This document shows, in pieces, positions 400 to 28,083 of a stretch of 32,000 nucleotides of DNA. The stretch is taken from positions 1 through 32,000 of the forward strand of contig PBNI01000030.1 of assembly GCA_002723045.1 (NCBI GenBank), in the 5' to 3' direction. The notes beneath the pieces were generated by a model, which was not told the DNA's origin, did not search any database, and worked only from the letters and a program-made list of their open reading frames with translations. Positions within the stretch are counted from its first letter, which is position 1, and each line of letters starts with the position of its first letter. Both the position numbers and the translations under genes were made by a program. The stretch comes from Methanobacteriota archaeon (GTDB lineage Archaea; Thermoplasmatota; Poseidoniia; Poseidoniales; Thalassarchaeaceae).

Positions 400-2451
400 T
401 CACAACCCCCTTCTTCTGAAGAGCACTGCCAAGGAAATTGCTACTACCAGAGAGGGCACTCCCAAAGACGGCAGTGCTCCATCGACCTCATCGGCGTCAT
501 CAGGTATTTCTGGATCTACTAGTTCTTCCATCAGTAAAGCAACATCTACGGTCGTGCTAGATGAAGTGCACTTGCCGGACTGGTCACAACCTGTGACATC
601 CACATTGATGACTCCAGAGGAAAACTCACTCATATCAATCCATTCGCTCTCCCAAGTATTGCCGGAGACCATAATCTGACCAATCTCCTGTCCATCAACC
701 TCAATCGTGAAAGTCACTGGCTCGCCATCCGGATCGCTATATTGCCCACCGACTCTCCACATAGTCCCATCAAACTCTCCCATTCCACTAATGGTCATAG
801 AGGGGGCTGTGCTTTCCTTCACGATACCAATGTCGATGATATGTTGCAGAGAGAATTGGCCAACCGACACCTCCATCCAGACATTGACTGGACCGGGAAC
901 GATGCCCTGTGGACTCAGGCTCACGACCTGCTGCGGGGAATCTCCTTTTTCGAATTCCTGAATCTCACTTGGTTGTCCACCTTGACTCAGTGCTAGACGC
1001 ACAGTCACGTCTCCACCCCATGAATCTGAAAATGAGATCTTCAGGGGGTGCTGGTCTTGGAGAATTACTTCGGGCGTCGAAATTGAAACAGGGACTCCCA
1101 CGTTCCATGTTCGATTCCCACTGGACTTGCCAGAAGCATCCTTTGCTTCGCATGAAACCTCTGTTACCCCATCCACATTGATCCACATTGACCCATCGAT
1201 GCTCTGTGAAATCTCATTTCCAGCCGAATTGCAGACGACATCTAGGTTGGAAACACCAGACTCATCATCGAACCAAGATGCAATCCCTTCCCAAGATGCT
1301 AACTTGTTCGCTCCTTCCCCGACAACTGGAATCCAAGTCCCATTAACTGGTGCTAGTTGGGTCCAAGTTGGAGCCTCATCAGTCGGAATTGGCGATGTAG
1401 TGAAGTCCGCGAAGACATCCTCTCCAAGAGGCCACTTCTCTCTTGAGAAGTTTGAGTCTAGGGAATAAGTCAGGCTGCCATCGTCATTTGCCAGCAACTC
1501 ATAGCTCGCAGTCCCATCTCCTATGCAACTTCCTCTTATCGGCGCTGTGTCGGTTCCAGGATTCTCCCCATCGAGACCTACGAACCTCCCTTCGCATTCC
1601 TCCCACATGTCCATCCTCAGGTCAGGCATCACTGGGAAAGTGAAGTCCAACCTAGCATTACTCATGTTCGATGAATTGAATGCGATGGTGAAGTCATTGG
1701 GGTCCGTAACACCATCAATCACCATCGTCGCGTTTAGCCAGAGCTCAATCCTGCACTCATCAGCTCCCAAGGACTCGTTGACATCAATGTCACAATCCCT
1801 CTCAGAAGACGGAATTACTGGTATTTCTATACATCCATCTTGGCTGAAACCCTGGCAGTCCCTTGATTGTGAGTGCCTCGTGGGCACTCCGTTGAAATGC
1901 CCGATGTTGGTCTGGTCGTCCTCCCACGTGGTGTTCATCCAACTAACTCCTTCCCCCCCTCTATGAGGGGAGCCATCTCGAATCCCTATTCTAGTGATGC
2001 TATACTCCAGACAATCTGCAGCAATGGAGACCATCGCGTCTATCTCATCAGTGGAGAGCCAACCATCCCCGCCAGAGGGAACAATACCTTCCAGGAAGGC
2101 ATCTAGGTCCTCCCTGATGTCATCAGCCAGTGTCCAGTTTATCCAGGCCCTAGCATCTACCTGGGCAGATTTCCAGTCGTCATTGACACGAACCTCGAAG
2201 ATTGCTTGGTTGTAGATGAAAATATCCTCGAATGTAATGGATCCGCATTGCTCTTCTAGGGAACCGCCACTCCCAAACTGCTCCATTTTTGTTTGTTCTT
2301 TCCTCAACTCTTCCGTCGGTAGATGGAACGTCGAAAATATCAGTATTACGATGACGCAAACTGACCCTAACCCCATCATCCGCATTCCAGTCACTATTGC
2401 CTTCCGGAGACCATAGGACATCATAGTTGCCATGATTGGGAACACAATCAT
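400..2451 (-). CDS. Cell-surface protein of unknown family, with an N-terminal hydrophobic segment and a C-terminal LPSLG-helix-RRR anchor
   Basis: 683-aa ORF with an ATGA start/stop overlap with the upstream gene at 2448-2451. N-terminal segment GLGSVCVIVILIFSTF; acidic body rich in Cys and N-x-S/T; C-terminus GALPSLGVPSLVVAISLAVLFRRRGL. I recognise no domain. Confidence 0.75.
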   Translation of the reverse strand: MIVFPIMATMMSYGLRKAIVTGMRMMGLGSVCVIVILIFSTFHLPTEELRKEQTKMEQFGSGGSLEEQCGSITFEDIFIYNQAIFEVRVNDDWKSAQVDARAWINWTLADDIREDLDAFLEGIVPSGGDGWLSTDEIDAMVSIAADCLEYSITRIGIRDGSPHRGGEGVSWMNTTWEDDQTNIGHFNGVPTRHSQSRDCQGFSQDGCIEIPVIPSSERDCDIDVNESLGADECRIELWLNATMVIDGVTDPNDFTIAFNSSNMSNARLDFTFPVMPDLRMDMWEECEGRFVGLDGENPGTDTAPIRGSCIGDGTASYELLANDDGSLTYSLDSNFSREKWPLGEDVFADFTTSPIPTDEAPTWTQLAPVNGTWIPVVGEGANKLASWEGIASWFDDESGVSNLDVVCNSAGNEISQSIDGSMWINVDGVTEVSCEAKDASGKSSGNRTWNVGVPVSISTPEVILQDQHPLKISFSDSWGGDVTVRLALSQGGQPSEIQEFEKGDSPQQVVSLSPQGIVPGPVNVWMEVSVGQFSLQHIIDIGIVKESTAPSMTISGMGEFDGTMWRVGGQYSDPDGEPVTFTIEVDGQEIGQIMVSGNTWESEWIDMSEFSSGVINVDVTGCDQSGKCTSSSTTVDVALLMEELVDPEIPDDADEVDGALPSLGVPSLVVAISLAVLFRRRGL

Positions 2452-3629
2452 CCGATATGGACAATTTCCCCAGTCCAGTGGAATGCTAGAAGATCTCCAT
2501 CAAGACCCTCGCCAAAGCCAACAATCATGCCTCCGCTGGAACCAATGTAACTTTCATTCCACGAGCCGTCCACTTCTTTCAATATCCACATTGAGCCGCT
2601 GCAGAAATCCCCGTAGAGGTATCCCCCATGTAGGTCGGTAGGCCCCCAATCCATCCAGAATCCACCAGTAATTGAGCAGTTCCCACCCGAATGAGAATAG
2701 GTAGCAATAGGACCAGCGAATGCATCTCGCATGCTCTCGTTAGCCTCACTACCGCCGCACGGAGTACTACTATCCAAGAGATAATCTCCCTCCATCTCAG
2801 CCCAACCTAAGTTTGCTGGATTCTCGAGAGAAACCAGATTGACTTCCTCCCAACAATCCTGACCAACGTCCGAGATCCAGAGCCTGCCATGACTGTCCAG
2901 ATCGAACCTCCAGGGATTCCGCAATCCGTGATGAAGTACGTATGGATCTCCAACAGGGTCGTCCAGAACGGGACTCACCTCGCCATCCAGATAGCTGAAT
3001 TGTAGGATCGTCCCGAGTTCAGTGGATGGGTTCTGACCGTTTTCTTCAGGATCATAGGCGTTTCCGCCATCGCCTACCCCCCATAGGAACTGGCTTCCTC
3101 CAATGTTCAGCAAATGCCCGCCGTTGTGGTTCCTGTATGGCTGCTCGATAGATTTGAGAACTTTGATGCTAGAAACGTCTAGTTCGCCTGAGGGGCTAAT
3201 TCCAGCGGAGGAAAGGACCAGATCTGACTCGTTCGGGCCATCACAAGGTCCATCCTCGACATAAGACAGCAAAATCGTCCTATTATCGCCAAAGCCATCT
3301 GCAAAGGCCATTCCTAGAAGACCCTGCTCAACATGGCACGTGCTGACCATCGAACTCAGATCGGCTATCTCCGATATCTCTGCCCCGTCCCAAGAGTGAA
3401 TTAGTCCAGATAACTCAACTATCCATATCTCGTCATTTGTCGGATGCTTCAGGGAGGAAATAGGGCTGGAGAATCCATCCAAGTACTTGTAACAGGACAA
3501 ATTGTAACTCTCTTGGATGGAGCAATCCCAACTCTCAGGTTCGGGCCAAACGAACCCGTCTTCTTCACCAAGGCATCCAGCAAATGAGGAAGTCACAACT
3601 AGCAGCGAGATAATTGCCCAACTTCTCAT
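2448..3629 (-). CDS. PQQ-dependent (soluble glucose/sorbosone) sugar dehydrogenase-like beta-propeller lipoprotein
   Basis: 393 aa. Signal plus lipobox-like LLVVTSSFAGC. Motifs YRNHNGGHLL, HGLRNPWRFDLD and LWISDVGQDCWEEVN are typical of the GSDH/YliI family. Confidence 0.8.
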   Translation of the reverse strand: MRSWAIISLLVVTSSFAGCLGEEDGFVWPEPESWDCSIQESYNLSCYKYLDGFSSPISSLKHPTNDEIWIVELSGLIHSWDGAEISEIADLSSMVSTCHVEQGLLGMAFADGFGDNRTILLSYVEDGPCDGPNESDLVLSSAGISPSGELDVSSIKVLKSIEQPYRNHNGGHLLNIGGSQFLWGVGDGGNAYDPEENGQNPSTELGTILQFSYLDGEVSPVLDDPVGDPYVLHHGLRNPWRFDLDSHGRLWISDVGQDCWEEVNLVSLENPANLGWAEMEGDYLLDSSTPCGGSEANESMRDAFAGPIATYSHSGGNCSITGGFWMDWGPTDLHGGYLYGDFCSGSMWILKEVDGSWNESYIGSSGGMIVGFGEGLDGDLLAFHWTGEIVHIG

Positions 3630-3638
3630 CCCTAGTCC

Positions 3639-4715
3639 CTACTTCTCTAGGTAGGCGCGGATGCCGGGGACATTTGAAACTGCGTCTGAGTAGGTGCCAA
3701 GATGTTCCTCTGCCGTGCTTGCAACCATTCCAGCCGTGTTAAGAACGTCATTCAGGATCTCCCGCCCCTCGCTATCATCGTCAAGAGCCAATAGCGCGTC
3801 TTGAATCCGGAGCATCGTCTCATCATCCATCCTCGCTGGGTCATACATTACTGGATGGCTGGGTGCCTGACCGAAAGAGGGGAGCATGACAATCTCATCC
3901 CTGTCTAGGCACCAGTCGGGACCATCGGGTACGTCATCCTCGTTCTCATCGCAATACAGTCGGTATGCCGTGTCCTTAACCAGGGCAATATCTCCATGAC
4001 CAGTCATCATGCACTTCAGTGCCCCTTTGTATCCAGAGTACTGAGTCCCTCCCTCTGGAATTTCCGAATCCTTATGGAAGAAGCTCGTTACTGTAGCTCT
4101 GAGGGATTCGATTTCCTCGGGATCGCCTTGAACTTCAGCATATCCATTCCCAATCAGATAACCCATTGGTATCAGCATGCCAGCGCTCTTCAGCCAACCC
4201 GTGTGGCACGACTTCTTGCCCTCCATGAGAGCGAATGGGTCGGTGTCAGGATCATCATCAAGGTATGCGGCTGCGATGTCTGAGTCGGCCCTTACCCATG
4301 CTGCAGCGTTGTAGTAGACCCTGCCATCCGGCTTCTTCTCGACGGCGACTACGTCCAAGTCGTACACCTGGTAACCCAACCATCCGGCAGCCCCATCGAC
4401 CATCGCGATCTCTGCATTGCCATTTGCAACCGCCTCTATCGCAGCCACTTCATCAGCTACTGGGTACACTACCACTTTCTCCCCAGTCAACTCGCTGAGC
4501 TTGTCAGCCATCTCTTGTGGATTTGCATCCCAGAATAGGTATGTGTCCTTCACTTCGTAAGCAATCCTGATACAGTCCTCATCATCACCGCACTCGTCGT
4601 AATCCACTGTGAATAATGCCCATAGAACGGCAGATGATAATAGCAGCCCAACAACCGCAATCGGAATACTCCTTCCCTGTAATGCCTCTCTAACTCTGTC
4701 AATCGCTGAACTCAT
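3639..4715 (-). CDS. Transferrin-like / PhnD-superfamily substrate-binding protein with an N-terminal membrane anchor (candidate Fe(III) binding protein)
   Basis: 358 aa. TM segment [19 protein letters not shown]. Motifs [68 protein letters not shown] and AMVDGAAG. Divergent to the phnC/phnE-like genes. Confidence 0.85.
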   Translation of the reverse strand: [358 protein letters not shown]

Positions 4716-4746
4716 ATTTAGACCCGAAACGCATTTTGTCCTTAAA

Positions 4747-4762
4747 TTTAGGGTTACCTAAA
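4747..4762. promoter_or_regulatory. Palindromic operator candidate TTTAGG-GTTA-CCTAAA (DtxR/IdeR iron-box-like)
   Basis: 6-4-6 inverted repeat centred in the 77-bp divergent intergenic region. It is flanked by A/T-rich TATA-like stretches (TTAAATTT on the left, AAATAT on the right), each about 27-35 nt from the respective ATG. The 17-mer ATTTAGGGTTACCTAAA (4746-4762) recurs exactly at 10382-10398. Confidence 0.6.
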
Positions 4763-4792
4763 TATCAAAAGTCAAATCAGACCCGAAAGACC

Positions 4793-5464
4793 ATGCCAGC
4801 GGTAGTTAGGATTAGCCATCTGGAAGTTGGCTTCCAAGGTCATAGCCTGCTTTCCATAGATGATTTTCATGTCAATCCAGGTGAAGTTCTCGCAATTACC
4901 GGCCCCTCGGGAATTGGAAAAACATCCCTCTTGAAAACTATAGCCGGTCTTCTGAATCCAATATCTGGAACAGTTCATGTTTGTGGAGCGACAATACCCC
5001 AGAGGCCAGAAAGAGGATCTATAGGATACATCCCACAGAAGCTAGGTCTGGTCAGGCACTCTAGTGTCTGGTCCAATGTCATGCTGGGTTCGAGAGCAGG
5101 AAATCCTAGATCAACATCCAGGGAGCATGCGATGAACGCTATCGAAGCCATGGGCCTGGGGGAGAAGAAGAACGAGCCGATTAAACGACTCTCAGGCGGC
5201 CAACAGAGGAGAGTAGCTACAGCCAGGACTCTGGCCCAACGTCCAAGACTTATTTTGGCTGATGAGTTCCTAAGCGAGTTGGACGAAGAAACATCAGAAA
5301 GGGTGGTAAAATCGGTACTGGACTATGTACGATCAAACGAAGCTGCCATGATTCTAGTCGAGCACGACGTCTCTCGAGCAAGGGAGATTTCTGATAGGCT
5401 TCTGGTTATAGATGATGGAAGGCTCAACCCGTTCATCACAGATACTTCGGTCATGGAGGTGTAG
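4793..5464 (+). CDS. ABC transporter ATP-binding protein, PhnC-like
   Basis: Walker A GPSGIGKTS, signature LSGGQQRR, Walker B LILADE, H-loop VEHD. I prefer ATG 4793 (MPAVVRISHLEV) over the TTG at 4736, because the extension would cover the operator and promoter. Confidence 0.85.
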   Translation: MPAVVRISHLEVGFQGHSLLSIDDFHVNPGEVLAITGPSGIGKTSLLKTIAGLLNPISGTVHVCGATIPQRPERGSIGYIPQKLGLVRHSSVWSNVMLGSRAGNPRSTSREHAMNAIEAMGLGEKKNEPIKRLSGGQQRRVATARTLAQRPRLILADEFLSELDEETSERVVKSVLDYVRSNEAAMILVEHDVSRAREISDRLLVIDDGRLNPFITDTSVMEV

Positions 5465-5488
5465 TTTTGGCAAAAATTTTGGCAAAAA
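5465..5488 (+). repeat. Perfect 12-nt tandem duplication TTTTGGCAAAAA x2 at the phnC stop / phnE start junction
   Basis: Read directly from the sequence. It encodes MAKI-LAKI and supplies two in-frame TTG codons (5467, 5479). Confidence 0.9.
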
Positions 5489-6327
5489 TTGACTCAGAAC
5501 TAAGGGAGTTGATAGTTTCCGTCGCAGTCCTACTATTAACATTCAGGATTCTACTGGAACTGACCTCCGGAATAGTCTGGGATTGGAATGGGTGGAGTGT
5601 AATTGAACCCCAATCTTACCCTCCTTGTGAAGCAAACAGGTTTCTACAGTTCACATGTTCAACAGCATGGATCGGAATGATTGAAACAATAAAGATTGCA
5701 ATACTCGCAACCTTCTTCGGTATGATCCTGTCATTGCCCATGGGCCTCCTTAGCTCAAGAAACCTGTTCCCGCAATACATCACCTATCCTTCCCGGGCTG
5801 TAGTCTCAGCATGTCGGAGCCTACCAAGTCTGATTTGGGCCATTATCTTCGTCATCTTGGTGGGACTAGGCCCCACAGCAGGAATAATGGCAATGACCAT
5901 TTACACAGTAGGCTATCTCGGAAAGATGCAGTACGAGGCAATTGAGGGGATGAATAGCGCGCCACTTGAGGCGGCGAACGCCATGGGCCTGACCAAAGCG
6001 GAGTTATCACTGTGGGTGGTTATCCCAGAAATGGCAAATCACCTAATTGCCCAGATGATTTTCATGTTCGAATACAACGTCAGATCTGGGACTGTAATAG
6101 GGATAGTCGGAGCAGGTGGAATTGGATATTACATCAACCTCTATCTGAAGTTCCTCCAATATGAAAAGGTTGGAGCTTATCTTCTGATAATCTTCTTGGT
6201 TGTGATGCTGATCGATTTGGTCTCCATCTATCTTCGCTCATTCTTCACCGACGAGTCCGAAAACAGCAAGCCCACTTGGACAGGAGTATTCTTGCCTCAG
6301 TACGAGAAAACTATCCTATCCGAATGA
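5467..6327 (+). CDS. ABC transporter permease, PhnE-like
   Basis: 286 aa, multi-TM. EAANAMGLTKAELSLWVVIPEMANHLIAQMIFMFEYNVRSGTVIGIVGAGGIGY matches the PhnE-type EAA loop and the NVR..GAGGIG signature. TTG start 3 nt after the phnC stop. Confidence 0.85.
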   Translation: MAKILAKIDSELRELIVSVAVLLLTFRILLELTSGIVWDWNGWSVIEPQSYPPCEANRFLQFTCSTAWIGMIETIKIAILATFFGMILSLPMGLLSSRNLFPQYITYPSRAVVSACRSLPSLIWAIIFVILVGLGPTAGIMAMTIYTVGYLGKMQYEAIEGMNSAPLEAANAMGLTKAELSLWVVIPEMANHLIAQMIFMFEYNVRSGTVIGIVGAGGIGYYINLYLKFLQYEKVGAYLLIIFLVVMLIDLVSIYLRSFFTDESENSKPTWTGVFLPQYEKTILSE

Positions 6328-6330
6328 GAA

Positions 6331-6558
6331 CTAGTAGTCTGCGACGATTCTGATGGCTCCACCGTCATAGAAGATCTGAATGTGATCCTTGGCCTTCGAG
6401 GAGAGGGCTGCCAGTGCCTCGTAGACTTCCTTCTCCTTGACGTTGAAAGCTTCCGCGGCCCTCTTCGTAGACCACGCAACTTCAACAAAGTCCGACGCGG
6501 AAATCCACTTCAGTAGCCTGGCCTCGAAGTCTGTAAGTTCACCCAGTGCCATAGTCAC
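6331..6558 (-). CDS. Small (75 aa) possible winged-helix DNA-binding protein
   Basis: ORF only. The helix-turn-helix-like stretch TKRAAEAFNVKEKEVYEALAALS is followed by a beta-hairpin-like IQIFYDGGAIRIV. I recognise no family. Confidence 0.45.
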   Translation of the reverse strand: MTMALGELTDFEARLLKWISASDFVEVAWSTKRAAEAFNVKEKEVYEALAALSSKAKDHIQIFYDGGAIRIVADY

Positions 6559-6649
6559 GGCACGGGGAGGGGGGAAATCAAGACTACCCCTATTCTAGGT
6601 AAACCACTCCGTAAATAGTCCAGCGAGAGGGTAAATCACAGAAATTTAT

Positions 6650-8557
6650 ATGTTCTGTTTGAGTGGAATATTTGTGCCTACAGGTCAGCCAATAGGCAAT
6701 ACTCTTCTCAGTACTATGATGCTTCTTCTCGTTTCGTTTTCAGGTTGCTTGCAAACAAATTCGGATAATTCAGAATTAGTAACACCAGGACAAGAAGAAC
6801 CATCACACGAAGAGCAGATGGAGGCAGCAATCCCCCTATCAATAGCATTCATCGTGGATGAGGTAACATTCGGCACCCAAAATGACCCTTCCTACATGGC
6901 CGAGAGATTTTCAGATGAGACTATCTTCGATGTTACCCCATATCCCGTTGAATCCGAAGAAGCGATGATCGAGTCTCTCAGGTTCGGTCATGTTGACCTT
7001 GCAATGATGGATGCAGCCTCATCTTGGATGAGTTGGAAGAACTACGACCTACAGGTTCTTCTTGCTGATCAGGAGAACTACGGCAGAACCTACTACAATT
7101 CCAATGCATGGGTCAAATCAGACAGCGAGATCGCCACTTACCACAGTGACGACGATCCGTTGACCGATCCATTTTCATTATTCGAGGGGAAGAAACCCTG
7201 TCACACAGGATGGTTCGACTCCGTGGGGATGCTTCTGCCCATGGGTTTCCTACTGGGCCTTGGATATGCTAATGTCGCTGGAAATCCAAACGATGTGGAA
7301 TCACTACTATTCACAATTCAAGACTTCCTGGATGATGAGCCCGCAATTCCACAAGCAGGCACAAAGTATTACGGATATTCAGGAGCCCTCAGATGCCTTT
7401 CAGATGGAACTGGAGACATCGCATTCCTCCAAGACTCAACAGTATCCGAACACTGTTCTGAAGACGATCAGAACAGGCCCTCGTGGTGTCTCGCAGAGGA
7501 TGAGTACACCGTACTTCCAACCTTTGGTAGGTCTCCCAGCAACGCATTAATGTTCAATCCCGACTTCCTCGATTCTGAAACTTCGCAGAAGATTTCCGAA
7601 GAATTTCTTAGGCTCAGCGGAATCAACGAAATGGACCAGACACTACGATCTCTGTTCGGAACCTCAGGTTTTACCTCTACCACTTCCTTCGAGCATTTGG
7701 ATGGATACTCCTCCCTCATTTACAACATTCCCGGATTGCAGGCATACTTCGAGGACCCTAGTAATTCCGAACAAGTCAATCTGAGTGTAGAAGAAATCGT
7801 AATCGGTGTAATTGGCCCTCTGTCAAACTCCACTGCATTTTCTTTCGAATTCTTGGCCGATTCAATTAGCGATGATGTGGGAATAAATGTGAGTATTTCA
7901 GAATTCGAGAATCATATTAGTCTGGTGGAAAACCTTTCAAATGGCGTCATAAACATTGCAATAACCGATGGAATCTCCTCTTGGAAGGCATGGAAGCATG
8001 ATGGCATGTCGGTTCTGGCGTCATTATTGAACGAACATGAGAGAGCATTTTCACAATCTCTTGCCATCGTCAAATCAGACAGCGAATTAGCCAGCTCATC
8101 AGATCCGTATACTTTGATGAGTGGCCTCTCTCCATGCTTTGCAGGCCCAAGTCATCCGAGCACACTATTGGCGACAGGACATCTGATTGGAGAGGGACTG
8201 ACTAACGATTTACCAGATATAGGAAACTCCACGATTTCTGAGATAATCCAATCAGTCTTCGATTCAAATTATAGCTTCCCCGGGGAGGAGGCAGAATTCC
8301 ATGGAACCAATGGCGCTCTTAGATGCCTATCAGAGGGAGGCGGCGACATTGCATTTGTTATCAACGATGGGCAAGCAATCTTCTGTAACGATGACTTACA
8401 GCCTACAGATGAAACGTGGTGTCTAGATTCAGAAGCATATGCCTCATTGCCGTCTCTCGGGGATCTTCCATATCGATCCTTCATCTACGACCCCACAATA
8501 TTGGATGTAGTATCACGCACAGCTATCCTAAACTCGATACTATCACTAAATTACTAG
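6650..8557 (+). CDS. Tandem two-lobe transferrin-like lipoprotein
   Basis: 635 aa; alternative start ATG 6716 (MMLLLVSFSGC lipobox-like). Lobe 1 (about 6820-7750): GKKPCHTGWFDSVGMLLPMG, YYGYSGALRCLSDGTGDIAFLQD, TYYNSNAWV, LAMMDAAS. Lobe 2 (about 7790-8554): LSPCFAGPSHPSTLLATGHLIG, FHGTNGALRCLSEGGGDIAFVIND, AITDGISS. Confidence 0.8.
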   Translation: MFCLSGIFVPTGQPIGNTLLSTMMLLLVSFSGCLQTNSDNSELVTPGQEEPSHEEQMEAAIPLSIAFIVDEVTFGTQNDPSYMAERFSDETIFDVTPYPVESEEAMIESLRFGHVDLAMMDAASSWMSWKNYDLQVLLADQENYGRTYYNSNAWVKSDSEIATYHSDDDPLTDPFSLFEGKKPCHTGWFDSVGMLLPMGFLLGLGYANVAGNPNDVESLLFTIQDFLDDEPAIPQAGTKYYGYSGALRCLSDGTGDIAFLQDSTVSEHCSEDDQNRPSWCLAEDEYTVLPTFGRSPSNALMFNPDFLDSETSQKISEEFLRLSGINEMDQTLRSLFGTSGFTSTTSFEHLDGYSSLIYNIPGLQAYFEDPSNSEQVNLSVEEIVIGVIGPLSNSTAFSFEFLADSISDDVGINVSISEFENHISLVENLSNGVINIAITDGISSWKAWKHDGMSVLASLLNEHERAFSQSLAIVKSDSELASSSDPYTLMSGLSPCFAGPSHPSTLLATGHLIGEGLTNDLPDIGNSTISEIIQSVFDSNYSFPGEEAEFHGTNGALRCLSEGGGDIAFVINDGQAIFCNDDLQPTDETWCLDSEAYASLPSLGDLPYRSFIYDPTILDVVSRTAILNSILSLNY

Positions 8558-8842
8558 ATGTTCCTCGATAATTTCACAACAATGGGCAGCGAATACACAG
8601 GTTGCTACGATATCTCGATCCACAAGATAGACGAGACATCCCCCAGAGGTGCGTGCGGCTCTGAGATTCTTTCCAATTCTCTGCATTCAACTGGAGTTTC
8701 CAGAACCACCTCGCAGAGTCAACTAGGTCACCTTTCCACGCTAATCGGCAATTTGCCAAACCAGTTGTTAGTCAATTTCTTAGTTGAAAATTAAGAATGA
8801 CCCATAACAACATACTAAGTGTACATTTTTCTTCATAAGAGC

Positions 8843-9259
8843 ATGAACAATGTAGACGTACATCTTGCTGACACAGATCGTTCTACTGCCAGTCGAATAT
8901 TCTGGTTCATTCTCGGCCTCACCTCAATGACACTGGGATTGATTGGTATCCCGGTTCCAGGCCTGCCAACCACCCCTTTCATGATTCTAGCAGCAGCTTG
9001 CTTCGCTCGTTCCAGTCAGAGATTCTATGATTGGGTAATCAATAACAAATTGTTCGGCACTCACGTTAAGAGCTACAGAGAGGGCAATGGAATCCCAAAG
9101 AGGAGTAAGCCGATGATCCTGGCAACAATGTGGACCTTTGTTTTGTTCGCGGTCCTAGTTGCCATTCCAGATGATGTTCCCATCTCCAAGGCCGCCACAC
9201 TGATTCTAGCATTAATCGGGACCATCTTCATTCTTAGGATTCCTAGTTCTGAACATTAG
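8843..9259 (+). CDS. YbaN/DUF454 family inner-membrane protein
   Basis: GLIGIPVPGLPTTPFMILAAACFARSSQRFYDWV is the DUF454 signature. Start uncertain (GTG 8819 or ATG 8843). The 3' end overlaps hemH by 17 nt, convergently. Confidence 0.75.
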   Translation: MNNVDVHLADTDRSTASRIFWFILGLTSMTLGLIGIPVPGLPTTPFMILAAACFARSSQRFYDWVINNKLFGTHVKSYREGNGIPKRSKPMILATMWTFVLFAVLVAIPDDVPISKAATLILALIGTIFILRIPSSEH

Positions 9260-10334
9260 AGAATCCCTTGTCGATCAACTTTGAAAGTCCTGATATCCAA
9301 TCTGGATTATCGTTGAGACATTTGACTACGGAGAAATGATTTCCACCATGACTGATGTAGTGCTCACGGACCTCAATGTCCAATTCCTCCAGCGTCTCTA
9401 AACCGTCAGCCAGGAATGCCGGAGAGACAACAACCACGTCTAGATCCTTCTTCGCCAAGTCTTCCACCACAGATAGAGTGGAGGGCTTCAGCCACTTCGC
9501 CGGCCCCAGCCTACTCTGGAAACTTATCGACCAAGCGTCATCAGACAATCCCAATTCGTCAACCACAGACTTTGCGGTCATACTGCAATGATGGGAGTAG
9601 CACATCGAGTTCGCCTCGTCCCTTCGGGCACAGCAACCGTCAACTTTCTGGCAGTATGAACCGGTTTTGTCAGCCCTCTTGACATGAGATATTGGCAGTC
9701 CGTGGAACGAGAATAGTAAGTGAGACCTCTCATTTAGGTGGGGTCTGATAGATCTCACCAGTGGCATGATGAACTCAGGCTCTTCTTCGAAGTGGCCCAG
9801 TTCGAAGAGATCCGGACTCCAACCAATTTCTCTCAATTGCCGAAAAGCCTCTTTCATAGAAGACTCAGTCGTGGCTTGAGCATGGTGTGGGAAAAGCGGA
9901 GCCAGTAGCAACTCCTCAACCCCTTCGGATCTGAGACTCTGCAAAGCAGATCCGATGCTCGGATTGCCATACCTCATCCCTACCTCGCACGCTACGTCCC
10001 CCATCTCCAATTGGAGCTTCTCAGCCATTCTTCTGGTATAGACTCGGAGAGGAGAATCACCATCCATCCAGATACTAGCATACCTTGGTGCTATGTTTCT
10101 CGGCCTAATCCTCAGAATTACCCCCCTAACCAGAAGATGCCTTAGTATGGTAGGAATGTCAATGACATCTGGATCCAGCAAGAATTCTCTCAAGTACTCC
10201 CTGACTGAACCCACGGTCGCCTCATCGGGCGTTCCAATGTTCATCAGCAGAACGCCTCTTTTTACCACAAACTCCACGCTCCAAAATCTAGTTATAATCG
10301 TAAGTTTCAGAAACTCTGTTTTCGAAAATAACAT
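9243..10334 (-). CDS. hemH: Ferrochelatase with an internal Cys-rich insert
   Basis: GVLLMNIGTPDEATVGSVREYLREFLLDPDVIDIP, SLRSEGVEELLLAPLFPHHAQATT and LLFSFHGLP are ferrochelatase-like. Start uncertain: GTG 10361, ATG 10334, or GTG codons near 10283-10295 just before VKRGVLLMN. Confidence 0.85.
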   Translation of the reverse strand: MLFSKTEFLKLTIITRFWSVEFVVKRGVLLMNIGTPDEATVGSVREYLREFLLDPDVIDIPTILRHLLVRGVILRIRPRNIAPRYASIWMDGDSPLRVYTRRMAEKLQLEMGDVACEVGMRYGNPSIGSALQSLRSEGVEELLLAPLFPHHAQATTESSMKEAFRQLREIGWSPDLFELGHFEEEPEFIMPLVRSIRPHLNERSHLLFSFHGLPISHVKRADKTGSYCQKVDGCCARRDEANSMCYSHHCSMTAKSVVDELGLSDDAWSISFQSRLGPAKWLKPSTLSVVEDLAKKDLDVVVVSPAFLADGLETLEELDIEVREHYISHGGNHFSVVKCLNDNPDWISGLSKLIDKGFSNVQN

Positions 10335-10382
10335 TTCTATTGAACAAATCAATATGGTCACTGCAGTAGAACAAAATTGAGA

Positions 10383-10398
10383 TTTAGGGTTACCTAAA
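10383..10398. promoter_or_regulatory. Second copy of the palindromic box TTTAGG-GTTA-CCTAAA
   Basis: Identical to 4747-4762. Lies in the hemH / lipoprotein divergent intergenic region, followed by the TATA-like TTATAA at 10401-10406. Confidence 0.6.
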
Positions 10399-10425
10399 AA
10401 TTATAAGACATACTTTGTGCGGAGG

Positions 10426-10441
10426 TTTAGGGTGCCCTAAA
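10426..10441. promoter_or_regulatory. Third box, perfect 7-2-7 palindrome TTTAGGG-TG-CCCTAAA, abutting the lipoprotein ATG
   Basis: Read directly; it ends 1 nt before ATG 10442. Confidence 0.55.
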
Positions 10442-11695
10442 ATGAATGGTAAACTACTAAGCTTAATGATGACAATACTGATGATGGCCTCAGCCCTTGC
10501 TGGGTGTGCAGGAGACGATGTTGACCTGGATGCAGAGGACGGGGGCTACGAATACGCCTCCAACGTCGACAACCACCGCATGCTGATGGGAGATGTCTGT
10601 GACATCAAGGATCTATCTGGAGCATACGACTGGGACGGCGTTAAGGACATCTATGAGAACGGAGAGCACGCAGAGAAGTCCGACGGTTCCTACAGGACCC
10701 TAATGGGCTTCGCTGATGCTTCGGGCAAGAACCACGCCTATGACGCATTCTATGGTGCAGACGGGTCATGGCATGACTTCGTGAACGCCGCCATTAGCGG
10801 TTCTGGGGCATTCGATGGAGAGTCCGACACAGTCAGAGACCAAGCCACAGAGAAGGGAATCCAGAACGGAGTCATGACTGCATACGCAATCCACGAGCTA
10901 AATGCCGCTATTATCAAGGCAGAGGCTGGAAACTGGGGCCCAGATGATGCTCAGCACGCCTGGGACGAAGGATGGGCATTCTATCACGGACCAGATGATT
11001 CTAACCACGACTACGACGGATGCGGTCCATACGCCACTGCCGACAAGAGGGCTGGAAACTTCGGGACCGCCAACTCTGGCGGCACCGCCGCAACTAACGT
11101 AGCTACATTGGCTGCAATGAATGCCGGCCTCACCGCTATGCAGAACGAGGACATGCAAGGGCTAGTCGACGCACGAGATGAGATTCTCAAGAACATCGTC
11201 ATCGTCTATTCACAGGCTTCCGTAAGGTACGCATCGAAGATGACAGACGACCTAGCCGCTGGAGACACCTCAGACTACGACAAGCACCAGGCAGAGGGCC
11301 ACTCCTTCTACAGGGTCATCGAGGCATACGTTGCTGAGTACACTTCGATCTGCTACAACATGGTCTCCCACACGGTATCCTCGGATACCTCACAGGCATC
11401 TTGCGAGGCATGGATGTACTTGGAGAACTACACGTCTTCCAACGACCCAGATGGGGAGGAGTTCACCGGCTGCTACAACTCTGTTACACACTCTCAGCAC
11501 GAGGGAATGTCACAGGAGGAGTGCGAGGCTTTCGGATGGTACGCAAACTACTACTCCGACAAGATCGTAGCAATGTTCGACCTATCCAACGATGGAGACG
11601 CTTCCGCAGATTACGAAGCTGACATCAGGGCTTGGCTACAGCCTGCATGGGATCATTACGGGATTACCGCAGGAGACATAGGAACTCTACAGTAA
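10442..11695 (+). CDS. Secreted lipoprotein of unknown function (candidate iron-regulated metal/haem-binding protein)
   Basis: ATG 10442 gives MNGKLLSLMMTILMMASALAGC (signal plus lipobox-like). Acidic, His/Trp/Tyr-rich and helix-looking. Internal duplicate: ICYNMVSHTVSSDTSQASCEAWMY and GCYNSVTHSQHEGMSQEECEAFGWY. Confidence 0.8.
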   Translation: MNGKLLSLMMTILMMASALAGCAGDDVDLDAEDGGYEYASNVDNHRMLMGDVCDIKDLSGAYDWDGVKDIYENGEHAEKSDGSYRTLMGFADASGKNHAYDAFYGADGSWHDFVNAAISGSGAFDGESDTVRDQATEKGIQNGVMTAYAIHELNAAIIKAEAGNWGPDDAQHAWDEGWAFYHGPDDSNHDYDGCGPYATADKRAGNFGTANSGGTAATNVATLAAMNAGLTAMQNEDMQGLVDARDEILKNIVIVYSQASVRYASKMTDDLAAGDTSDYDKHQAEGHSFYRVIEAYVAEYTSICYNMVSHTVSSDTSQASCEAWMYLENYTSSNDPDGEEFTGCYNSVTHSQHEGMSQEECEAFGWYANYYSDKIVAMFDLSNDGDASADYEADIRAWLQPAWDHYGITAGDIGTLQ

Positions 11696-15240: not shown

Positions 15241-16278
15241 ATGGAAACGATATCAGAGAAACATATTGCAAACTCGAAATTTCAGATTTTAATGATTGCC
15301 GCACTATCCCTCGCCACACTCATTTTCGCACTACTGGCAATGGGGTGGGGGTCATCTTCAAACCTTGACATGACGGCAACAATGAGAATCCTCCTTGGTT
15401 TGGATGAAGCAGATGATTTACAGTCAGACATTCTTTGGAAACTAAGACTCCCAAGGATATTGATGGCAATTATCGCGGGAGTGGCTCTTGCTACTGCTGG
15501 AGCACTAATGCAAGGCTGCCTAGGAAACCCACTCGTCTCCCCTCTGACTCTTGGAGTGGCTTCTGGTGCTGCTTTAGGGGCCGCATTCGCCATTATTCTG
15601 GATTTTTCTGTCCTACCAGACTTGGCAATAGTGGCGAACTCCTTTCTTTTCTCATTACTTGTCGTCGGAATAATAATTCAACTAGGAAAAATGCGATCCA
15701 TTTCCGCTGAATCCTATATTTTAGTTGGTATTGCAATCACTTTCATTGCAGGTGCCATCGTTTCGACAATGCAGTACTTTGCCACAGATGCACAACTATC
15801 TCAATTGACACATTGGTCATTCGGAAGCCTATCAAGACCAACTCTTTCCAATGTAATTTGGATAGGGGCAGCAGTGGTATCTCTGTTGCCAATGGCAATG
15901 TTGTGGTCTTGGGATTTGAATGCGATGTCCTTGGGGGGGGATGACTTTGCCATCTCCACTGGAGTAGATCCCGAATCTACTAGGAAGAACATACTGATCC
16001 TCTCAGCCTTGATGACATCAATAGTGATCTCGTTTACTGGACTGATTGGATTTGTAGGACTAGCCGCGCCGCACATGAGTCGCCTGATCATTGGTAATGA
16101 CTACAGGAAATTGATACCATGCTCCGCTGTCTTCGGAGCTTTCCTGATGCTCTTTGCAGATACCGTCGGAAGAATTCTATTCGCACCAATTGTGATTCCC
16201 GTGGGAATAATGCTATCCATAATCGGTGGGCCACTTTTTATGTATCTTCTACTGAAGTATAGGGGGGCGGGGTTCTGA
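15241..16278 (+). CDS. FecCD-family ABC permease (HmuU/BtuC-like)
   Basis: LRLPRILMAIIAGVALATAGALMQGCLGNPLVSPLTLGVASGAALGAA is the family signature; multi-TM. Confidence 0.9.
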   Translation: METISEKHIANSKFQILMIAALSLATLIFALLAMGWGSSSNLDMTATMRILLGLDEADDLQSDILWKLRLPRILMAIIAGVALATAGALMQGCLGNPLVSPLTLGVASGAALGAAFAIILDFSVLPDLAIVANSFLFSLLVVGIIIQLGKMRSISAESYILVGIAITFIAGAIVSTMQYFATDAQLSQLTHWSFGSLSRPTLSNVIWIGAAVVSLLPMAMLWSWDLNAMSLGGDDFAISTGVDPESTRKNILILSALMTSIVISFTGLIGFVGLAAPHMSRLIIGNDYRKLIPCSAVFGAFLMLFADTVGRILFAPIVIPVGIMLSIIGGPLFMYLLLKYRGAGF

Positions 16279-17060
16279 CAAGTTTACTTCAGGTAAAGGA
16301 TCTAAGTTTTAGATGGGGCGATAGAGAAGTTCTAAGGAATATAAATTTCGAAGTTGAGCCAAATCAGACAATAGCCATCCTTGGAAAAAATGGAGTCGGG
16401 AAAACCACATTGATCAAATGCCTCAACCGAGTCCTAATTCCTCATTCAGGAACCGTCAAATTTTCTTCACGAGATATTTCAGAAATGAGTCTAATGGAAC
16501 TATCCAAAATGTCTTCTTATGTCCCACAATCAGTCAGAACCAGCTTTTCAATGGACGTTTTTGATGTTGTTCTTCTCGGCCGGAGGCCACATATCTCGTG
16601 GAGAGTTTCATCAGAGGATAGAGAAGCAGTTAGCCGCACTCTGAGTCTTCTGGGACTGGAGGAATTTGCCTTCAGAAAGTTCGACAAACTTTCTGGTGGA
16701 GAGAGGCAGAGAGTAATAGTTGCCAAGGCTGTAGCACAAGACCCCTCCCTCTTTCTTTTCGATGAACCGACCAGTGACCTAGATTTACGAAATCAGATTG
16801 AGGTAATGAAGAGAATAGTCGAGATTGTTTCAGATAAAAAATCTGAGAAATCTGCTATTGTTTCCATTCATGATATCAATATAGCAGCAAGATTCTCTGA
16901 AAGAATTATCCTATTGCACGAAGGAGAAGTAAAGGCAGATGGTTCTCCATCAGACGTCCTAAACGAAGACAATATTGCAGAAGTATTCGGAGTAACTTGC
17001 GAAATCGTAGACCAAACAGATGACTCGCCAATGAGGGTCTTGATCAAAGATGAGGTGTAG
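16275..17060 (+). CDS. ABC ATP-binding protein (FecE/HmuV-like) with a non-canonical or disrupted start
   Basis: The frame is open from 16263 and encodes ..LLQVKDLSFRWGDREVLRNINFEVEPNQTIAILGKNGVGKTTL. The first in-frame ATG/GTG/TTG is TTG 16410, after Walker A. CTG 16275 overlaps the permease TGA (cTGA). Signature LSGGERQR, Walker B LFLFDEP, H-loop SIHD. Confidence 0.8.
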   Translation: MTSLLQVKDLSFRWGDREVLRNINFEVEPNQTIAILGKNGVGKTTLIKCLNRVLIPHSGTVKFSSRDISEMSLMELSKMSSYVPQSVRTSFSMDVFDVVLLGRRPHISWRVSSEDREAVSRTLSLLGLEEFAFRKFDKLSGGERQRVIVAKAVAQDPSLFLFDEPTSDLDLRNQIEVMKRIVEIVSDKKSEKSAIVSIHDINIAARFSERIILLHEGEVKADGSPSDVLNEDNIAEVFGVTCEIVDQTDDSPMRVLIKDEV

Positions 17061-20244: not shown

Positions 20245-20284
20245 GGTACCTCCACTAATCCATAGGGCAAATAATTGGCGTTGC

Positions 20285-21307: not shown

Positions 21308-21399
21308 CTGCGCGGCGCATAGACCATGTTATGACCCTATGGGGGCCTTTGACACGGATGCGTTGACTTCTTGGTGGGTAATTATTCGCACGGGGCATA

Positions 21400-21484
21400 G
21401 CAGGGGTACCCGAGTGGTCAAAGGGGCTGGGTTTAGGTCCCAGTGCGTAGTGCTTCGCAGGTTCAAATCCTGCCCCCTGCACCA
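21400..21484 (+). tRNA. tRNA-Leu (anticodon UAG), class II, CCA encoded
   Basis: Acceptor GCAGGGG / CCCCTGC. Anticodon stem CTGGG / CCCAG with loop TTTAGGT (TAG at 21434-21436). 13-nt variable arm. T arm GCAGG-TTCAAAT-CCTGC. Discriminator A plus CCA. Confidence 0.9.
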
Positions 21485-27979: not shown

Positions 27980-27981
27980 AC

Positions 27982-28002
27982 TCCTCCTACGAAGTAGGAG
28001 GA
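27982..28002 (-). promoter_or_regulatory. Perfect 9-bp hairpin pairing GGAGGA with UCCUCC immediately 5' of the giant gene's ATG
   Basis: TCCTCCTAC-gaa-GTAGGAGGA on the + strand. On the mRNA strand it reads UCCUCCUAC-UUC-GUAGGAGGA-GU-AUG. Confidence 0.35.
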
Positions 28003-28083
28003 CATTAAAATTGCCTCCGATCTTAATCTTCGACTCCTCCAAATTCACCTCACCTTCCAGTACCCTCGTTCGCAAAATCTATT

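What the first reader, a model, noticed from the sequence alone, without database searches (positions are those of the whole stretch)
6650..8557. Tandem two-lobe transferrin-like lipoprotein with a ligand-depleted second lobe
The 635-aa protein contains two consecutive copies of the same fold joined near 7750-7790. Lobe 1 keeps Asp (MMDAAS), Tyr (TYYNSNAWV), Tyr (YYGYSGALRC) and Thr (CHTG). It replaces the His with Asn (SPSNALM) and has Asp at the Arg124 position. Lobe 2 keeps the scaffold motifs (NGALRCLSEGGGDIAFV, AITDGISS) but has lost both Tyr (AFSQSLAIV, HGTNGA) and the His (LPYRSF). A bilobal transferrin architecture with a degenerate lobe is familiar from animal transferrins such as melanotransferrin and insect transferrins. 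Seeing an apparently independent lobe duplication in a prokaryotic lipoprotein is unexpected. The gene has no adjacent transporter of its own, so it may hand cargo to the nearby PhnC/E-type system or act as a surface store or sensor.
Basis: partly seen in the sequence, partly recalled or inferred. Interest (0 to 1): 0.8.

Follow-up and report, generated by a model that had tools for sequence, protein, structure and literature searches.

The report
Archaeal two-lobe transferrin-like iron-binding lipoprotein
This marine archaeal gene encodes a surface lipoprotein made of two transferrin-like lobes, probably the iron-capturing part of the neighbouring ABC importer; the family is common in Marine Group II archaea, evolved its two lobes independently of animals, and this copy is cut short by a premature stop codon.

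Summary
The tandem duplication is real: N-half against C-half gives E=4e-38 at 32% identity. Lobe 1 has Asp, Tyr, Tyr and Thr, with His→Asn and Lys/Arg→Asp. Lobe 2 keeps only the Asp.

Three corrections.
1. The 635-aa ORF is truncated. Codon 636 is TAG where relatives have GAG or GAA, and the frame runs on to 8794, encoding the conserved end of lobe 2. A 99.88%-identical metagenome contig has GAG.
2. The gene is not an orphan. In nearly every fetched locus with enough flank it lies beside the same PhnC/PhnE-type ATPase and permease.
3. It is not a one-off. About 700-aa two-lobe homologues occur in 216 loci of species-representative genomes, nearly all Poseidoniales. In 47 of 80 both lobes keep the full transferrin site.

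A lobe tree places both archaeal lobes together (187/200 bootstraps), nested among archaeal single-lobe proteins and apart from animal lobes (200/200). The duplication is therefore independent. Lobe 2 is under purifying selection (dN/dS 0.08–0.28).

Best reading: an Fe(III)-binding protein of an ABC importer, in an iron-acquisition gene cluster. Pipelines label it a phosphonate-binding protein. In this lineage a single-lobe paralogue keeps the canonical site.

It is a new variant of a known kind. Iron binding is untested.

The parts
6650..8557 (+). It is the 5' 89% of the gene and ends at a premature TAG.
6674..6748 (+). Probable true start (GTG 6674), signal peptide and lipobox-like FSG-C (Cys33 at 6746-6748). 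A TTTATA at 6646-6651 lies ~25 nt upstream, consistent with a leaderless archaeal transcript (inference).
   Evidence: Homologues start at the equivalent MP..., and L008 has a stop in the upstream extension. Sequence. Gly-Cys is invariant in 44 sequences.
6821..7759 (+). Lobe 1 (residues ~58-370). Transferrin-like, with Asp121, Tyr149, Thr186 and Tyr243 kept. Asn298 replaces the His and Asp190 replaces the anion-anchoring Lys/Arg.
   Evidence: AF2 model of the 96%-identical P0001
7760..7798 (+). Inter-lobe linker (…FEDPSNSEQVNLSV…). It has low pLDDT in the model.
7799..8791 (+). Lobe 2 (residues ~384-714, read through the TAG). The scaffold is kept and only the Asp (D440) of the metal/anion set remains. 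Under purifying selection.
8555..8557 (+). In-frame TAG at codon 636. Relatives have GAG or GAA (Glu). It is a single G→T difference, private to this assembly.
   Evidence: TAG is the ordinary stop of 11 of 21 window ORFs.
8549..8656 (+). Lobe-2-specific insert of ~35 aa, absent from lobe 1 and from single-lobe proteins. It contains the near-invariant TGCYD.S.H … CGSEI motif, predicted as a small β-sheet. It is the most conserved part of lobe 2, and the TAG lies at its start.
8558..8794 (+). Post-TAG continuation (78 codons plus TAA). It encodes the conserved C-terminal helices of lobe 2. dN/dS against relatives is 0.02-0.07.
3639..4715 (-). Single-lobe paralogue (358 aa) with the complete transferrin site D-Y-T-K-Y-H.
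4736..5464 (+). ABC ATPase. Its best NCBIfam match is PhnC, below the cut-off.
5467..6327 (+). ABC permease, PhnE-type (216.8 bits, cut-off 216.7).
6331..6558 (-). Small conserved 75-aa ORF between the permease and the two-lobe gene. Function unknown. The two-lobe gene is therefore its own transcription unit.
10415..11695 (+). FEA1-related lipoprotein, an algal-type iron-assimilation protein family. In most related loci it lies directly next to the two-lobe gene.

Best explanation
The gene is the Poseidoniales (Marine Group II archaea) version of a ~700-aa surface lipoprotein built from two transferrin-like lobes. It is the substrate-binding protein of the adjacent PhnC/PhnE-type ABC importer.

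The ancestral and commonest form has the full transferrin site in each lobe: Asp, Tyr, Tyr and His for Fe(III), and Thr plus Lys for carbonate. It most likely captures inorganic Fe(III) at the cell surface and passes it to the permease.

In the window's lineage a single-lobe paralogue (3639..4715) keeps that site, and the two-lobe protein has diverged.
- Lobe 1 keeps Asp and both Tyr but has His→Asn and Lys→Asp. It probably binds metal differently, perhaps with the carboxylate replacing carbonate.
- Lobe 2 has lost three of four metal ligands and the anion Thr. It probably no longer binds metal. It is kept as a scaffold or docking module that carries a conserved lobe-2-specific insert.

In this assembly codon 636 is TAG instead of GAG. 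The gene as written would give a product lacking the last 78 residues.

Shown: architecture, homology, residue states, synteny, independent duplication, purifying selection, the TAG.
Inferred: iron as ligand, carbonate dependence, the roles of lobe 1 and lobe 2.
For: - Duplication: E=4e-38.
- Pfam Transferrin and Phosphonate-bd both match above their cut-offs.
- PDB sequence hits are only transferrin-family proteins. This holds for the whole protein (1e-20), the single-lobe profile (2e-37) and lobe 2 alone.
- AF2 model of the 96%-identical P0001: pLDDT 84.9, pTM 0.80. Its best Foldseek match is melanotransferrin at 1.5e-24, aligned along the whole length.
- Ligand columns were validated against real animal transferrins in the same alignment.
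- Ligand patterns over 119 two-lobe and 85 single-lobe proteins and over 80 genome loci.
- The gene lies next to the ATPase and permease in nearly every locus that has enough flank.
- The neighbourhood is about iron. It holds a FEA1-related lipoprotein (368 bits, cut-off 250), ferrochelatase, flavodoxin, a Peripla_BP_2/FecCD transporter and a PNPOx+DUF2470 protein. From my own knowledge, that last domain pair is the one found in HugZ-type haem-degrading proteins.
- dN/dS is 0.04-0.08 for lobe 1 and 0.08-0.28 for lobe 2.
- A single-lobe canonical paralogue is nearby in 16 of 33 loci with altered sites and in 0 of 47 loci with both lobes canonical. Fisher p=4e-8, not corrected for phylogeny.
- TAG.
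Against: - No binding experiment exists for any member. Iron is inferred from residues and gene neighbourhood only.
- The transporter is of the phosphonate type. The permease just reaches the PhnE equivalog cut-off, and automated pipelines name the protein a phosphate/phosphonate-binding protein.
- With Asp replacing the carbonate-anchoring Lys and Asn replacing His, lobe 1 of this lineage may not bind iron at all.
- I could not inspect model coordinates, so site geometry and the position of the insert are unknown.
- The tree is neighbour-joining on 305 columns with a simple distance correction. Separate monophyly of lobe 1 (129/200) and lobe 2 (158/200) is only moderately supported.
Confidence: 0.6

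Rival explanations
1. It is what pipelines call it: a phosphonate, phosphite or phosphate substrate-binding protein (PhnD-like) of a PhnCDE transporter, used for phosphorus acquisition.
For: - Pfam PF12974 matches at 74.9 bits.
- The permease reaches the PhnE equivalog cut-off, and the ATPase's best match is PhnC.
- JGI names homologues 'ABC-type phosphate/phosphonate transport system substrate-binding protein'.
- Tully 2019 lists phosphonate transport as a core MGII trait (PMC6336850).
Against: - The protein scores far below the NCBIfam cut-offs for PhnD (44.6 against 261.1) and for the phosphate/phosphite/phosphonate SBP subfamily (55.1 against 112).
- All listed PDB sequence hits and Foldseek top hits are transferrin-family proteins and none is PhnD (each list shows only the best 50-60).
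- The canonical lobes carry the complete Asp/Tyr/Tyr/His + Thr/Lys set, as animal transferrins do.
- No C-P lyase or phosphonatase gene appeared among the window ORFs scanned. The neighbours are iron genes.
Confidence: 0.12
2. The altered lobes have been neofunctionalised rather than merely degraded. They would bind another cation or a small organic ligand, as saxiphilin and the inhibitor of carbonic anhydrase do among animal transferrins.
For: - Altered sets are lineage-specific but conserved within lineages. Examples: lobe 1 DYYTDYN in 39 proteins, and lobe 2 NYSSDDD in 55 proteins, which is rich in carboxylates.
- Lobe 2 is under purifying selection.
- A canonical single-lobe copy is present where the two-lobe protein has diverged.
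- Saxiphilin appears among the PDB hits of lobe 2.
Against: - The window's lobe 2 replaces ligands with Ser/Ala/Thr/Arg, which is not an obvious new metal site.
- The most conserved part of lobe 2 is the C-terminal insert, not the cleft.
- No candidate ligand is suggested by the neighbourhood.
Confidence: 0.25
3. In this particular genome the gene is a pseudogene. The TAG is a real nonsense mutation, and the truncated product is unstable because it lacks the insert and the terminal helices of lobe 2.
For: - TAG is at codon 636, where all relatives have Glu.
- TAG is a normal stop here (11 of 21 ORFs), so no recoding is involved.
- A second oddity in the window is the ATPase at 16410, whose Walker A lies upstream of any canonical start.
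Against: - The post-TAG 234 nt are intact and in frame, with dN/dS 0.06 against the closest relatives.
- A 99.88%-identical contig (4 differences in 3359 nt) has GAG.
- The change is therefore either very recent or a consensus or sequencing error. The two cannot be told apart without reads.
Confidence: 0.4
4. It is a surface iron store or sensor that does not deliver to a transporter.
For: - The gene has its own promoter region and is separated from the permease by an oppositely oriented small ORF.
- Its lobes are degenerate.
Against: - Adjacency to the ATPase and permease is conserved across the order. In most loci the two-lobe protein is the only binding protein of the operon.
- No signalling domain is present.
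Confidence: 0.08

Closest known systems
Animal bilobal transferrins, especially those with a non-binding lobe (melanotransferrin, insect transferrin-1) or a changed function (saxiphilin, inhibitor of carbonic anhydrase)
   Same: - Two tandem lobes of the same type II binding-protein fold.
- The same Asp/Tyr/Tyr/His + Thr/(Arg,Lys) columns.
- Best sequence and fold matches.
- One lobe degenerates in some lineages.
   Different: - The duplication is independent.
- It is an archaeal lipoprotein beside an ABC importer, not a secreted or GPI-anchored protein taken up through a receptor.
- Lobe 2 has a conserved ~35-aa insert.
- Lys rather than Arg is the usual residue at the anion position.
- Only ~16-19% identity.
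PhnD-type phosphonate-binding proteins with PhnC/PhnE
   Same: - The same Pfam family match (PF12974), and the same type of permease and ATPase.
[quoted passage not shown]
   Different: - Far below the PhnD cut-offs.
- Two lobes.
- Transferrin metal ligands are present.
- The neighbourhood is iron genes rather than phosphonate catabolism genes.
Algal phytotransferrin (ISIP2a), FEA1, and multi-domain algal transferrin-like proteins
   Same: - Surface-anchored proteins of marine microbes proposed to bind Fe(III).
- Domain multiplication has happened repeatedly (PMC7676907).
- A FEA1-related lipoprotein lies next to the gene.
   Different: - The window protein matches Pfam Transferrin and Phosphonate-bd. 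The Pfam Fea1 model (PF07692), whose family is linked to ISIP2a in PMC7676907, does not appear among its matches.
- Delivery is presumably by an ABC importer rather than endocytosis.
Multi-lobe, membrane-anchored transferrin-like proteins of unicellular holozoans (Chromosphaera, Creolimax, Amoebidium, Ichthyophonus, Sphaeroforma, Corallochytrium)
   Same: - They are the best non-archaeal matches to the archaeal single-lobe profile, at 100-150 bits per lobe over the full length. Animal lobes score ~60-80 bits.
- Every lobe checked in Chromosphaera, Creolimax, Amoebidium and Ichthyophonus keeps D-Y-T-K/R-Y-H, usually with Lys as in archaea.
- They share the C-terminal HLG.Y…VPG motif.
   Different: - They are eukaryotic, with 2-5 lobes and a C-terminal transmembrane anchor.
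- They group with animal lobes, not with archaeal ones (200/200).
ABC importers with two substrate-binding domains in one polypeptide (GlnPQ type; from my own knowledge, not tested)
   Same: Two complete binding modules in tandem serve one transporter.
   Different: In GlnPQ the domains are fused to the permease and both bind substrate. Here the tandem protein is a separate lipoprotein, and in this lineage one module looks inactive.
Bacterial ferric-binding proteins FbpA/FutA ('bacterial transferrins')
   Same: Proposed job: bind Fe(III) outside the cell and feed an ABC importer.
   Different: They belong to a different binding-protein family. One search lists only Transferrin and Phosphonate-bd for this protein. 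They also have one lobe and a different ligand set (my own knowledge).

Membership tests
Transferrin family (Pfam PF00405, transferrin-like domain) | Sequence match above the curated Pfam threshold | tested here: met
   68.9 bits against a cut-off of 20.3 for the 635-aa ORF. Lobe 2 alone scores only 16.3 bits, below the cut-off.
Transferrin family (Pfam PF00405, transferrin-like domain) | Lobe fold closest to solved transferrins | tested here: met
   Model pLDDT 84.9, pTM 0.80. The top 50 Foldseek PDB hits are all transferrins (some in complexes), best 1.5e-24. TM-scores are only 0.3-0.4 because the lobes are oriented differently.
Transferrin family (Pfam PF00405, transferrin-like domain) | Fe(III) ligand tetrad Asp-Tyr-Tyr-His in a lobe | tested here: not met
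   Lobe 1 has 3 of 4 (His→Asn) and lobe 2 has 1 of 4 (Asp only). The tetrad is complete in the 358-aa paralogue and in both lobes of 47 of 80 related loci.
Transferrin family (Pfam PF00405, transferrin-like domain) | Synergistic-anion site: Thr plus Arg/Lys at the helix N-terminus | tested here: not met
   Lobe 1 keeps Thr but has Lys→Asp. Lobe 2 has Thr→Ala and no basic residue. The paralogue has Thr and Lys.
Transferrin family (Pfam PF00405, transferrin-like domain) | Two lobes descended from the same duplication as animal transferrins | tested here: not met
   Archaeal lobes 1+2 form a clade in 187/200 bootstraps, animal N+C lobes in 200/200, and eukaryotes split from archaea in 200/200.
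Transferrin family (Pfam PF00405, transferrin-like domain) | Reversible carbonate-dependent Fe(III) binding | not testable with these tools
   Needs recombinant protein.
PhnD phosphonate-binding protein | Score above the NCBIfam equivalog or subfamily cut-off | tested here: not met
   TIGR03431: 44.6 against 261.1. TIGR01098: 55.1 against 112.05.
PhnD phosphonate-binding protein | Pfam Phosphonate-bd (PF12974) match | tested here: met
   74.9 bits against a cut-off of 27.
PhnD phosphonate-binding protein | Encoded with PhnC and PhnE | tested here: inconclusive
   The permease scores 216.8 against 216.7 for the PhnE equivalog. The ATPase scores 132 against 266 for PhnC.
PhnD phosphonate-binding protein | Phosphonate catabolism genes in the neighbourhood | tested here: not met
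   None among the window ORFs scanned against Pfam. The neighbours are iron-related.
Lipid-anchored substrate-binding protein of an ABC importer | N-terminal signal peptide with a lipobox Cys | tested here: met
   ...LLLVSFSG-C. Gly-Cys is invariant in 44 homologues. Lipidation itself is not testable.
Lipid-anchored substrate-binding protein of an ABC importer | Conserved adjacency to an ATPase and a permease | tested here: met
   The order is two-lobe gene, ATPase, permease (or the rearranged order in the window's clade) in nearly every locus with enough flank. Exceptions are L078, where the pair lies ~7 kb away, and short or end-cut contigs.
FbpA/FutA ferric-binding proteins | Match to their binding-protein families | tested here: not met
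   One search lists only two Pfam families for this protein at E≤0.01, Phosphonate-bd and Transferrin.

The most novel reading that the evidence does not exclude
The operon that genome surveys of Marine Group II archaea count as 'phosphonate transport' is really a transferrin-type, carbonate-dependent Fe(III) uptake system. This archaeal family has single-lobe members in other Thermoplasmatota, Heimdallarchaeota and Nitrosopumilus. It would be a living example of the prokaryotic stock from which eukaryotic transferrins arose: a transferrin still working as the binding protein of a PhnCE-type ABC importer. On this reading the multi-lobe architecture and later lobe degeneration evolved convergently in archaea, unicellular holozoans and animals.
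Probability: 0.3. Interest if true: 0.8.

Novelty: new variant of a known kind. Interest (0 to 1): 0.6.

Why it matters
Marine Group II archaea are among the most abundant planktonic archaea, are uncultured, and have an essentially uncharacterised iron economy.

- If this family binds Fe(III), a trait currently read as phosphonate uptake (PMC6336850) becomes iron uptake. That would change how their niche and their competition with phytoplankton for inorganic iron are interpreted.
- The family gives a prokaryotic, ABC-coupled transferrin with the full animal ligand set, in single-lobe and two-lobe forms. It also offers natural series of ligand loss. This makes a tractable system for asking why transferrins became bilobal and what a 'dead' lobe is kept for.
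- The close similarity to multi-lobe proteins of unicellular relatives of animals makes the origin of transferrin directly testable by phylogenetics.

Tried and rejected
- **Recoding of the TAG (pyrrolysine or programmed read-through).** Rejected. TAG ends 11 of 21 ORFs in the window, and relatives simply have GAG or GAA.
- **Gene conversion between lobes.** I considered this because lobes 1 and 2 are 64-69% identical in P0042 and P0053 but 28-31% identical in the window's clade. It is not needed. The lobe-1 and lobe-2 subtrees have the same branching order, with long lobe-2 branches. One old duplication with uneven rates explains the data.
- **Filing the protein as PhnD.** Rejected on NCBIfam cut-offs and on the PDB and Foldseek hit lists.
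- **Exact look-ups of the window's truncated protein (627 and 635 aa).** Not on record.
- **P0001's contig.** It has no DNA on file.
- **Literature.** No held paper mentions transferrin together with Poseidoniales, MGII or Marine Group II. Word-start searches returned only 'transferring'. McQuaid 2018 is not held.
- **Bacterial promoter and terminator scan.** Not run, because the organism is an archaeon.
Full report
**1. What is in the sequence**

ORF 6650..8557 (+) of 635 aa exists. Its N-half (residues 1-375) and C-half (376-635) align at E=4e-38, with 32% identity over 246 residues. The internal duplication is far beyond chance. The protein matches both Pfam Transferrin (68.9 bits, cut-off 20.3) and Phosphonate-bd (74.9 bits, cut-off 27). 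Against all solved structures its only sequence relatives are transferrins, led by melanotransferrin and lactoferrin at 1e-20. Lobe 2 alone also finds only lactoferrin, melanotransferrin, saxiphilin and similar proteins.

**2. The ORF is cut short**

Lobe 2 looked ~60 residues shorter than lobe 1. The stop at 8555-8557 is TAG. The same frame then continues for 78 codons to TAA at 8792-8794. This tail is homologous to the C-terminal end of the single-lobe paralogue: GSEILSNSLHSTGVSRTTSQSQLGHLSTLIGNLP against GREILNDVLNTAGMVASTAEEHLGTYSDAVSNVP, E=3e-6.

- A search with the read-through product found more than 235 homologues. Nearly all are ~700 aa and cover 95-100% of it. They have a near-invariant Glu where the window has the stop.
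- The DNA of five relatives has GAG or GAA at that codon.
- A metagenome contig (L085) is 99.88% identical to window 7898..11256, with four differences in 3359 nt. It has GAG.
- TAG is the ordinary stop of 11 of 21 ORFs in the window, so recoding is not an explanation.
- The post-TAG codons show dN/dS of 0.02-0.07 against relatives. The change is therefore very recent or an assembly error.
- The likely true start is GTG 6674. Homologues begin there, one relative (L008) has a stop in the upstream extension, and a TTTATA lies ~25 nt upstream. This gives 706 codons, as in the 96%-identical P0001.

**3. Residues of the binding site**

I aligned 73 lobes, including genuine animal transferrins: axolotl and fish serotransferrin, Trichoplax and crinoid melanotransferrin, and a scorpion transferrin. 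The animal lobes read D-Y-T-(K/R)-Y-H in the columns that I know, from the transferrin literature, to be the Fe and carbonate ligands. In human transferrin these are Asp63, Tyr95, Thr120, Arg124, Tyr188 and His249.

| Protein or lobe | Residues in those columns |
|---|---|
| 358-aa paralogue | D-Y-T-K-Y-H |
| Window lobe 1 | D-Y-T-D-Y-N |
| Window lobe 2 | D-S-A-(S/H)-T-R |

The profile-to-lactoferrin alignment shows the same correspondences motif by motif.

**4. The family**

A scan of one genome per species found 216 loci. Essentially all are Poseidoniales, from both MGIIa and MGIIb, plus one MGIII. The closest is a Poseidoniales MAG at 97% identity.

Among 80 fetched loci, 47 have the full D-Y-T-Y-H set in both lobes. 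The other 33 have lineage-specific alterations:
- The window type: lobe 1 DYYTDYN with lobe 2 DFS..TR.
- A common type with lobe 1 intact and lobe 2 NYSSDDD.
- Several others.

Single-lobe proteins of 348-367 aa are also abundant and almost always canonical (78 of 85).

Lobe 2 of every two-lobe protein carries a ~35-aa insert with the near-invariant motif TGCYD.S.H…CGSEI. Lobe 1 and single-lobe proteins lack it. It is the best conserved part of lobe 2 and is predicted as a small β-sheet. Its role is unknown.

**5. History of the duplication**

In a neighbour-joining tree (305 columns, 200 bootstraps):

| Grouping | Bootstrap support |
|---|---|
| Archaeal lobes 1 and 2 together | 187/200 |
| That group nested among Poseidoniales single-lobe proteins | 194/200 |
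| Animal N and C lobes together | 200/200 |
| Eukaryotic sequences split from archaeal ones | 200/200 |
| Archaeal lobe 1 alone | 129/200 |
| Archaeal lobe 2 alone | 158/200 |

Within the lobe-1 and lobe-2 subtrees the branching order is the same. Lobe-2 branches are much longer, and longest in the window's clade. This fits one duplication in an ancestor of Poseidoniales, independent of the animal one, followed by accelerated change of lobe 2 in some lineages. Lobe 2 is still constrained: its dN/dS is 0.08-0.28, against 0.04-0.08 for lobe 1.

**6. Context and likely function**

It lies just downstream of an ATPase (4736..5464) and a PhnE-type permease (5467..6327).
- Across the order the usual arrangement is FEA1-like lipoprotein, two-lobe gene, ATPase, permease.
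- In most loci the two-lobe protein is the only binding protein of the operon.
- The window's clade is rearranged: single-lobe paralogue (−), ATPase, permease, small 75-aa ORF (−), two-lobe gene.

The surrounding 15 kb is an iron-acquisition island. It holds a FEA1-related lipoprotein (368 bits, cut-off 250), ferrochelatase, a Peripla_BP_2/FecCD/ATPase transporter, flavodoxin and a PNPOx+DUF2470 protein. From my own knowledge, that domain pair is the one found in HugZ-type haem-degrading proteins.

The binding proteins fall far below the NCBIfam cut-offs for PhnD. I therefore think the family captures Fe(III), probably with carbonate, at the archaeal surface and hands it to a PhnCE-type importer. 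That is an inference from residues and neighbourhood. No member has been tested.

Two statements from the literature frame this. Tully 2019 lists 'transport of phosphonates' as a core MGII trait (PMC6336850). [quoted passage not shown]

**7. The window's lineage**

A canonical single-lobe paralogue lies nearby in 16 of 33 loci whose two-lobe protein has altered sites. It lies nearby in none of the 47 loci with both lobes canonical (p=4e-8, not corrected for shared ancestry). This suggests a division of labour: the single-lobe copy keeps the standard site and the two-lobe protein is free to change.

In lobe 1 the paired changes Lys→Asp and His→Asn occur in 39 proteins. I suspect the new carboxylate takes the place of carbonate, but this is speculation. 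Lobe 2 has lost too much to bind iron in the known way. Its conservation points to a structural or docking role, or to an unknown ligand.

**8. Relatives outside Poseidoniales**

An exhaustive HMMER search of 1.84 billion representatives found only 546 clusters at E≤1e-3.
- After Thermoplasmatota, the best matches are multi-lobe, membrane-anchored proteins of unicellular relatives of animals: Chromosphaera (5 lobes), Creolimax (3), Amoebidium and Ichthyophonus (2 each), Sphaeroforma and Corallochytrium.
- These score 100-150 bits per lobe, against ~60-80 for animal lobes. Every lobe checked in Chromosphaera, Creolimax, Amoebidium and Ichthyophonus has the full ligand set.
- Single-lobe relatives occur in Heimdallarchaeota and Nitrosopumilus.
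- This is a lead on the origin of transferrin, not a result. My tree is unrooted in effect and uses a simple method.

**9. Novelty and verdict**

Databases already give these proteins the generic name 'PhnD/SsuA/transferrin family substrate-binding protein'. I found no paper in the held library that mentions transferrin together with Poseidoniales, MGII or Marine Group II.

- The thing itself is a new variant of a known kind: a prokaryotic, ABC-coupled, independently bilobal transferrin-like protein with lineage-specific lobe degeneration.
- The gene is interrupted in this assembly, it does have a transporter, and the family is widespread rather than exceptional.
- Interest is moderate to high. 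It rests mainly on the possible reinterpretation of a core MGII transporter and on the evolutionary link to eukaryotic transferrins.

Noticed in passing
window 6331..6558 (-): A 75-aa ORF (MTMALGELTDFEARLLKW…) with no Pfam match. A 73-74 aa ORF sits in the same place, after the permease on the opposite strand, in L001, L003 and the P0001 contig. It is a conserved small gene, possibly a regulator of the operon.
   Followed up: partly
window 16263..17060 (+): In the ABC ATPase of the FecCD-type transporter, the Walker A motif (GKNGVGKT) is encoded upstream of the first ATG/GTG/TTG in the frame. This means either a non-canonical start or a second point defect in this assembly.
   Followed up: partly
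window 20000..27000: G+C rises from ~0.46 to 0.57-0.60 over the 2196-aa ORF 21485..28075 (-). Similar giant ORFs (2109-2241 aa) flank the locus in L001 and L003.
   Followed up: no
L047 8073..12495: Two two-lobe genes lie in tandem before the ATPase and permease. By tblastn, both lobes of the first resemble the single-lobe query, while the second gene's lobe 2 is more diverged.
   Followed up: no
L017 (PARX01000028.1): This contig is labelled as a Rhodobacteraceae MAG, but it carries the typical archaeal locus (FEA1, two-lobe gene, ATPase, permease, GSDH, single-lobe gene). It is probably mis-binned.
   Followed up: no
P0244, P0252, P0253, P0257, P0264, P0274, P0283 (unicellular holozoans); P0254 (Bryopsis): These are membrane-anchored proteins with 2-5 transferrin-like lobes (14 matched stretches in the green alga). 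They are the closest non-archaeal relatives of the archaeal single-lobe profile, and the lobes checked in four of the holozoan species keep D-Y-T-K/R-Y-H.
   Followed up: partly
P0341 (Heimdallarchaeota), P0376 (Nitrosopumilus), P0353, P0382: Single-lobe relatives reading D-x-Y-T-G-Y-H. The metal ligands are complete, but Gly sits at the anion-anchoring Lys/Arg position.
   Followed up: no
window 8796..10344 compared with L004 and L086: DUF454 and ferrochelatase are inserted between the two-lobe gene and the FEA1-like gene in the window, L084 and L085. They are absent at that place in L004 and L086.
   Followed up: no
window 2448..3629 (-) and related loci: A GSDH-type (glucose/sorbosone dehydrogenase-like) gene always accompanies the single-lobe paralogue as a pair, including where the pair sits on the other side of the operon. 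Its link to the system is unknown.
   Followed up: no
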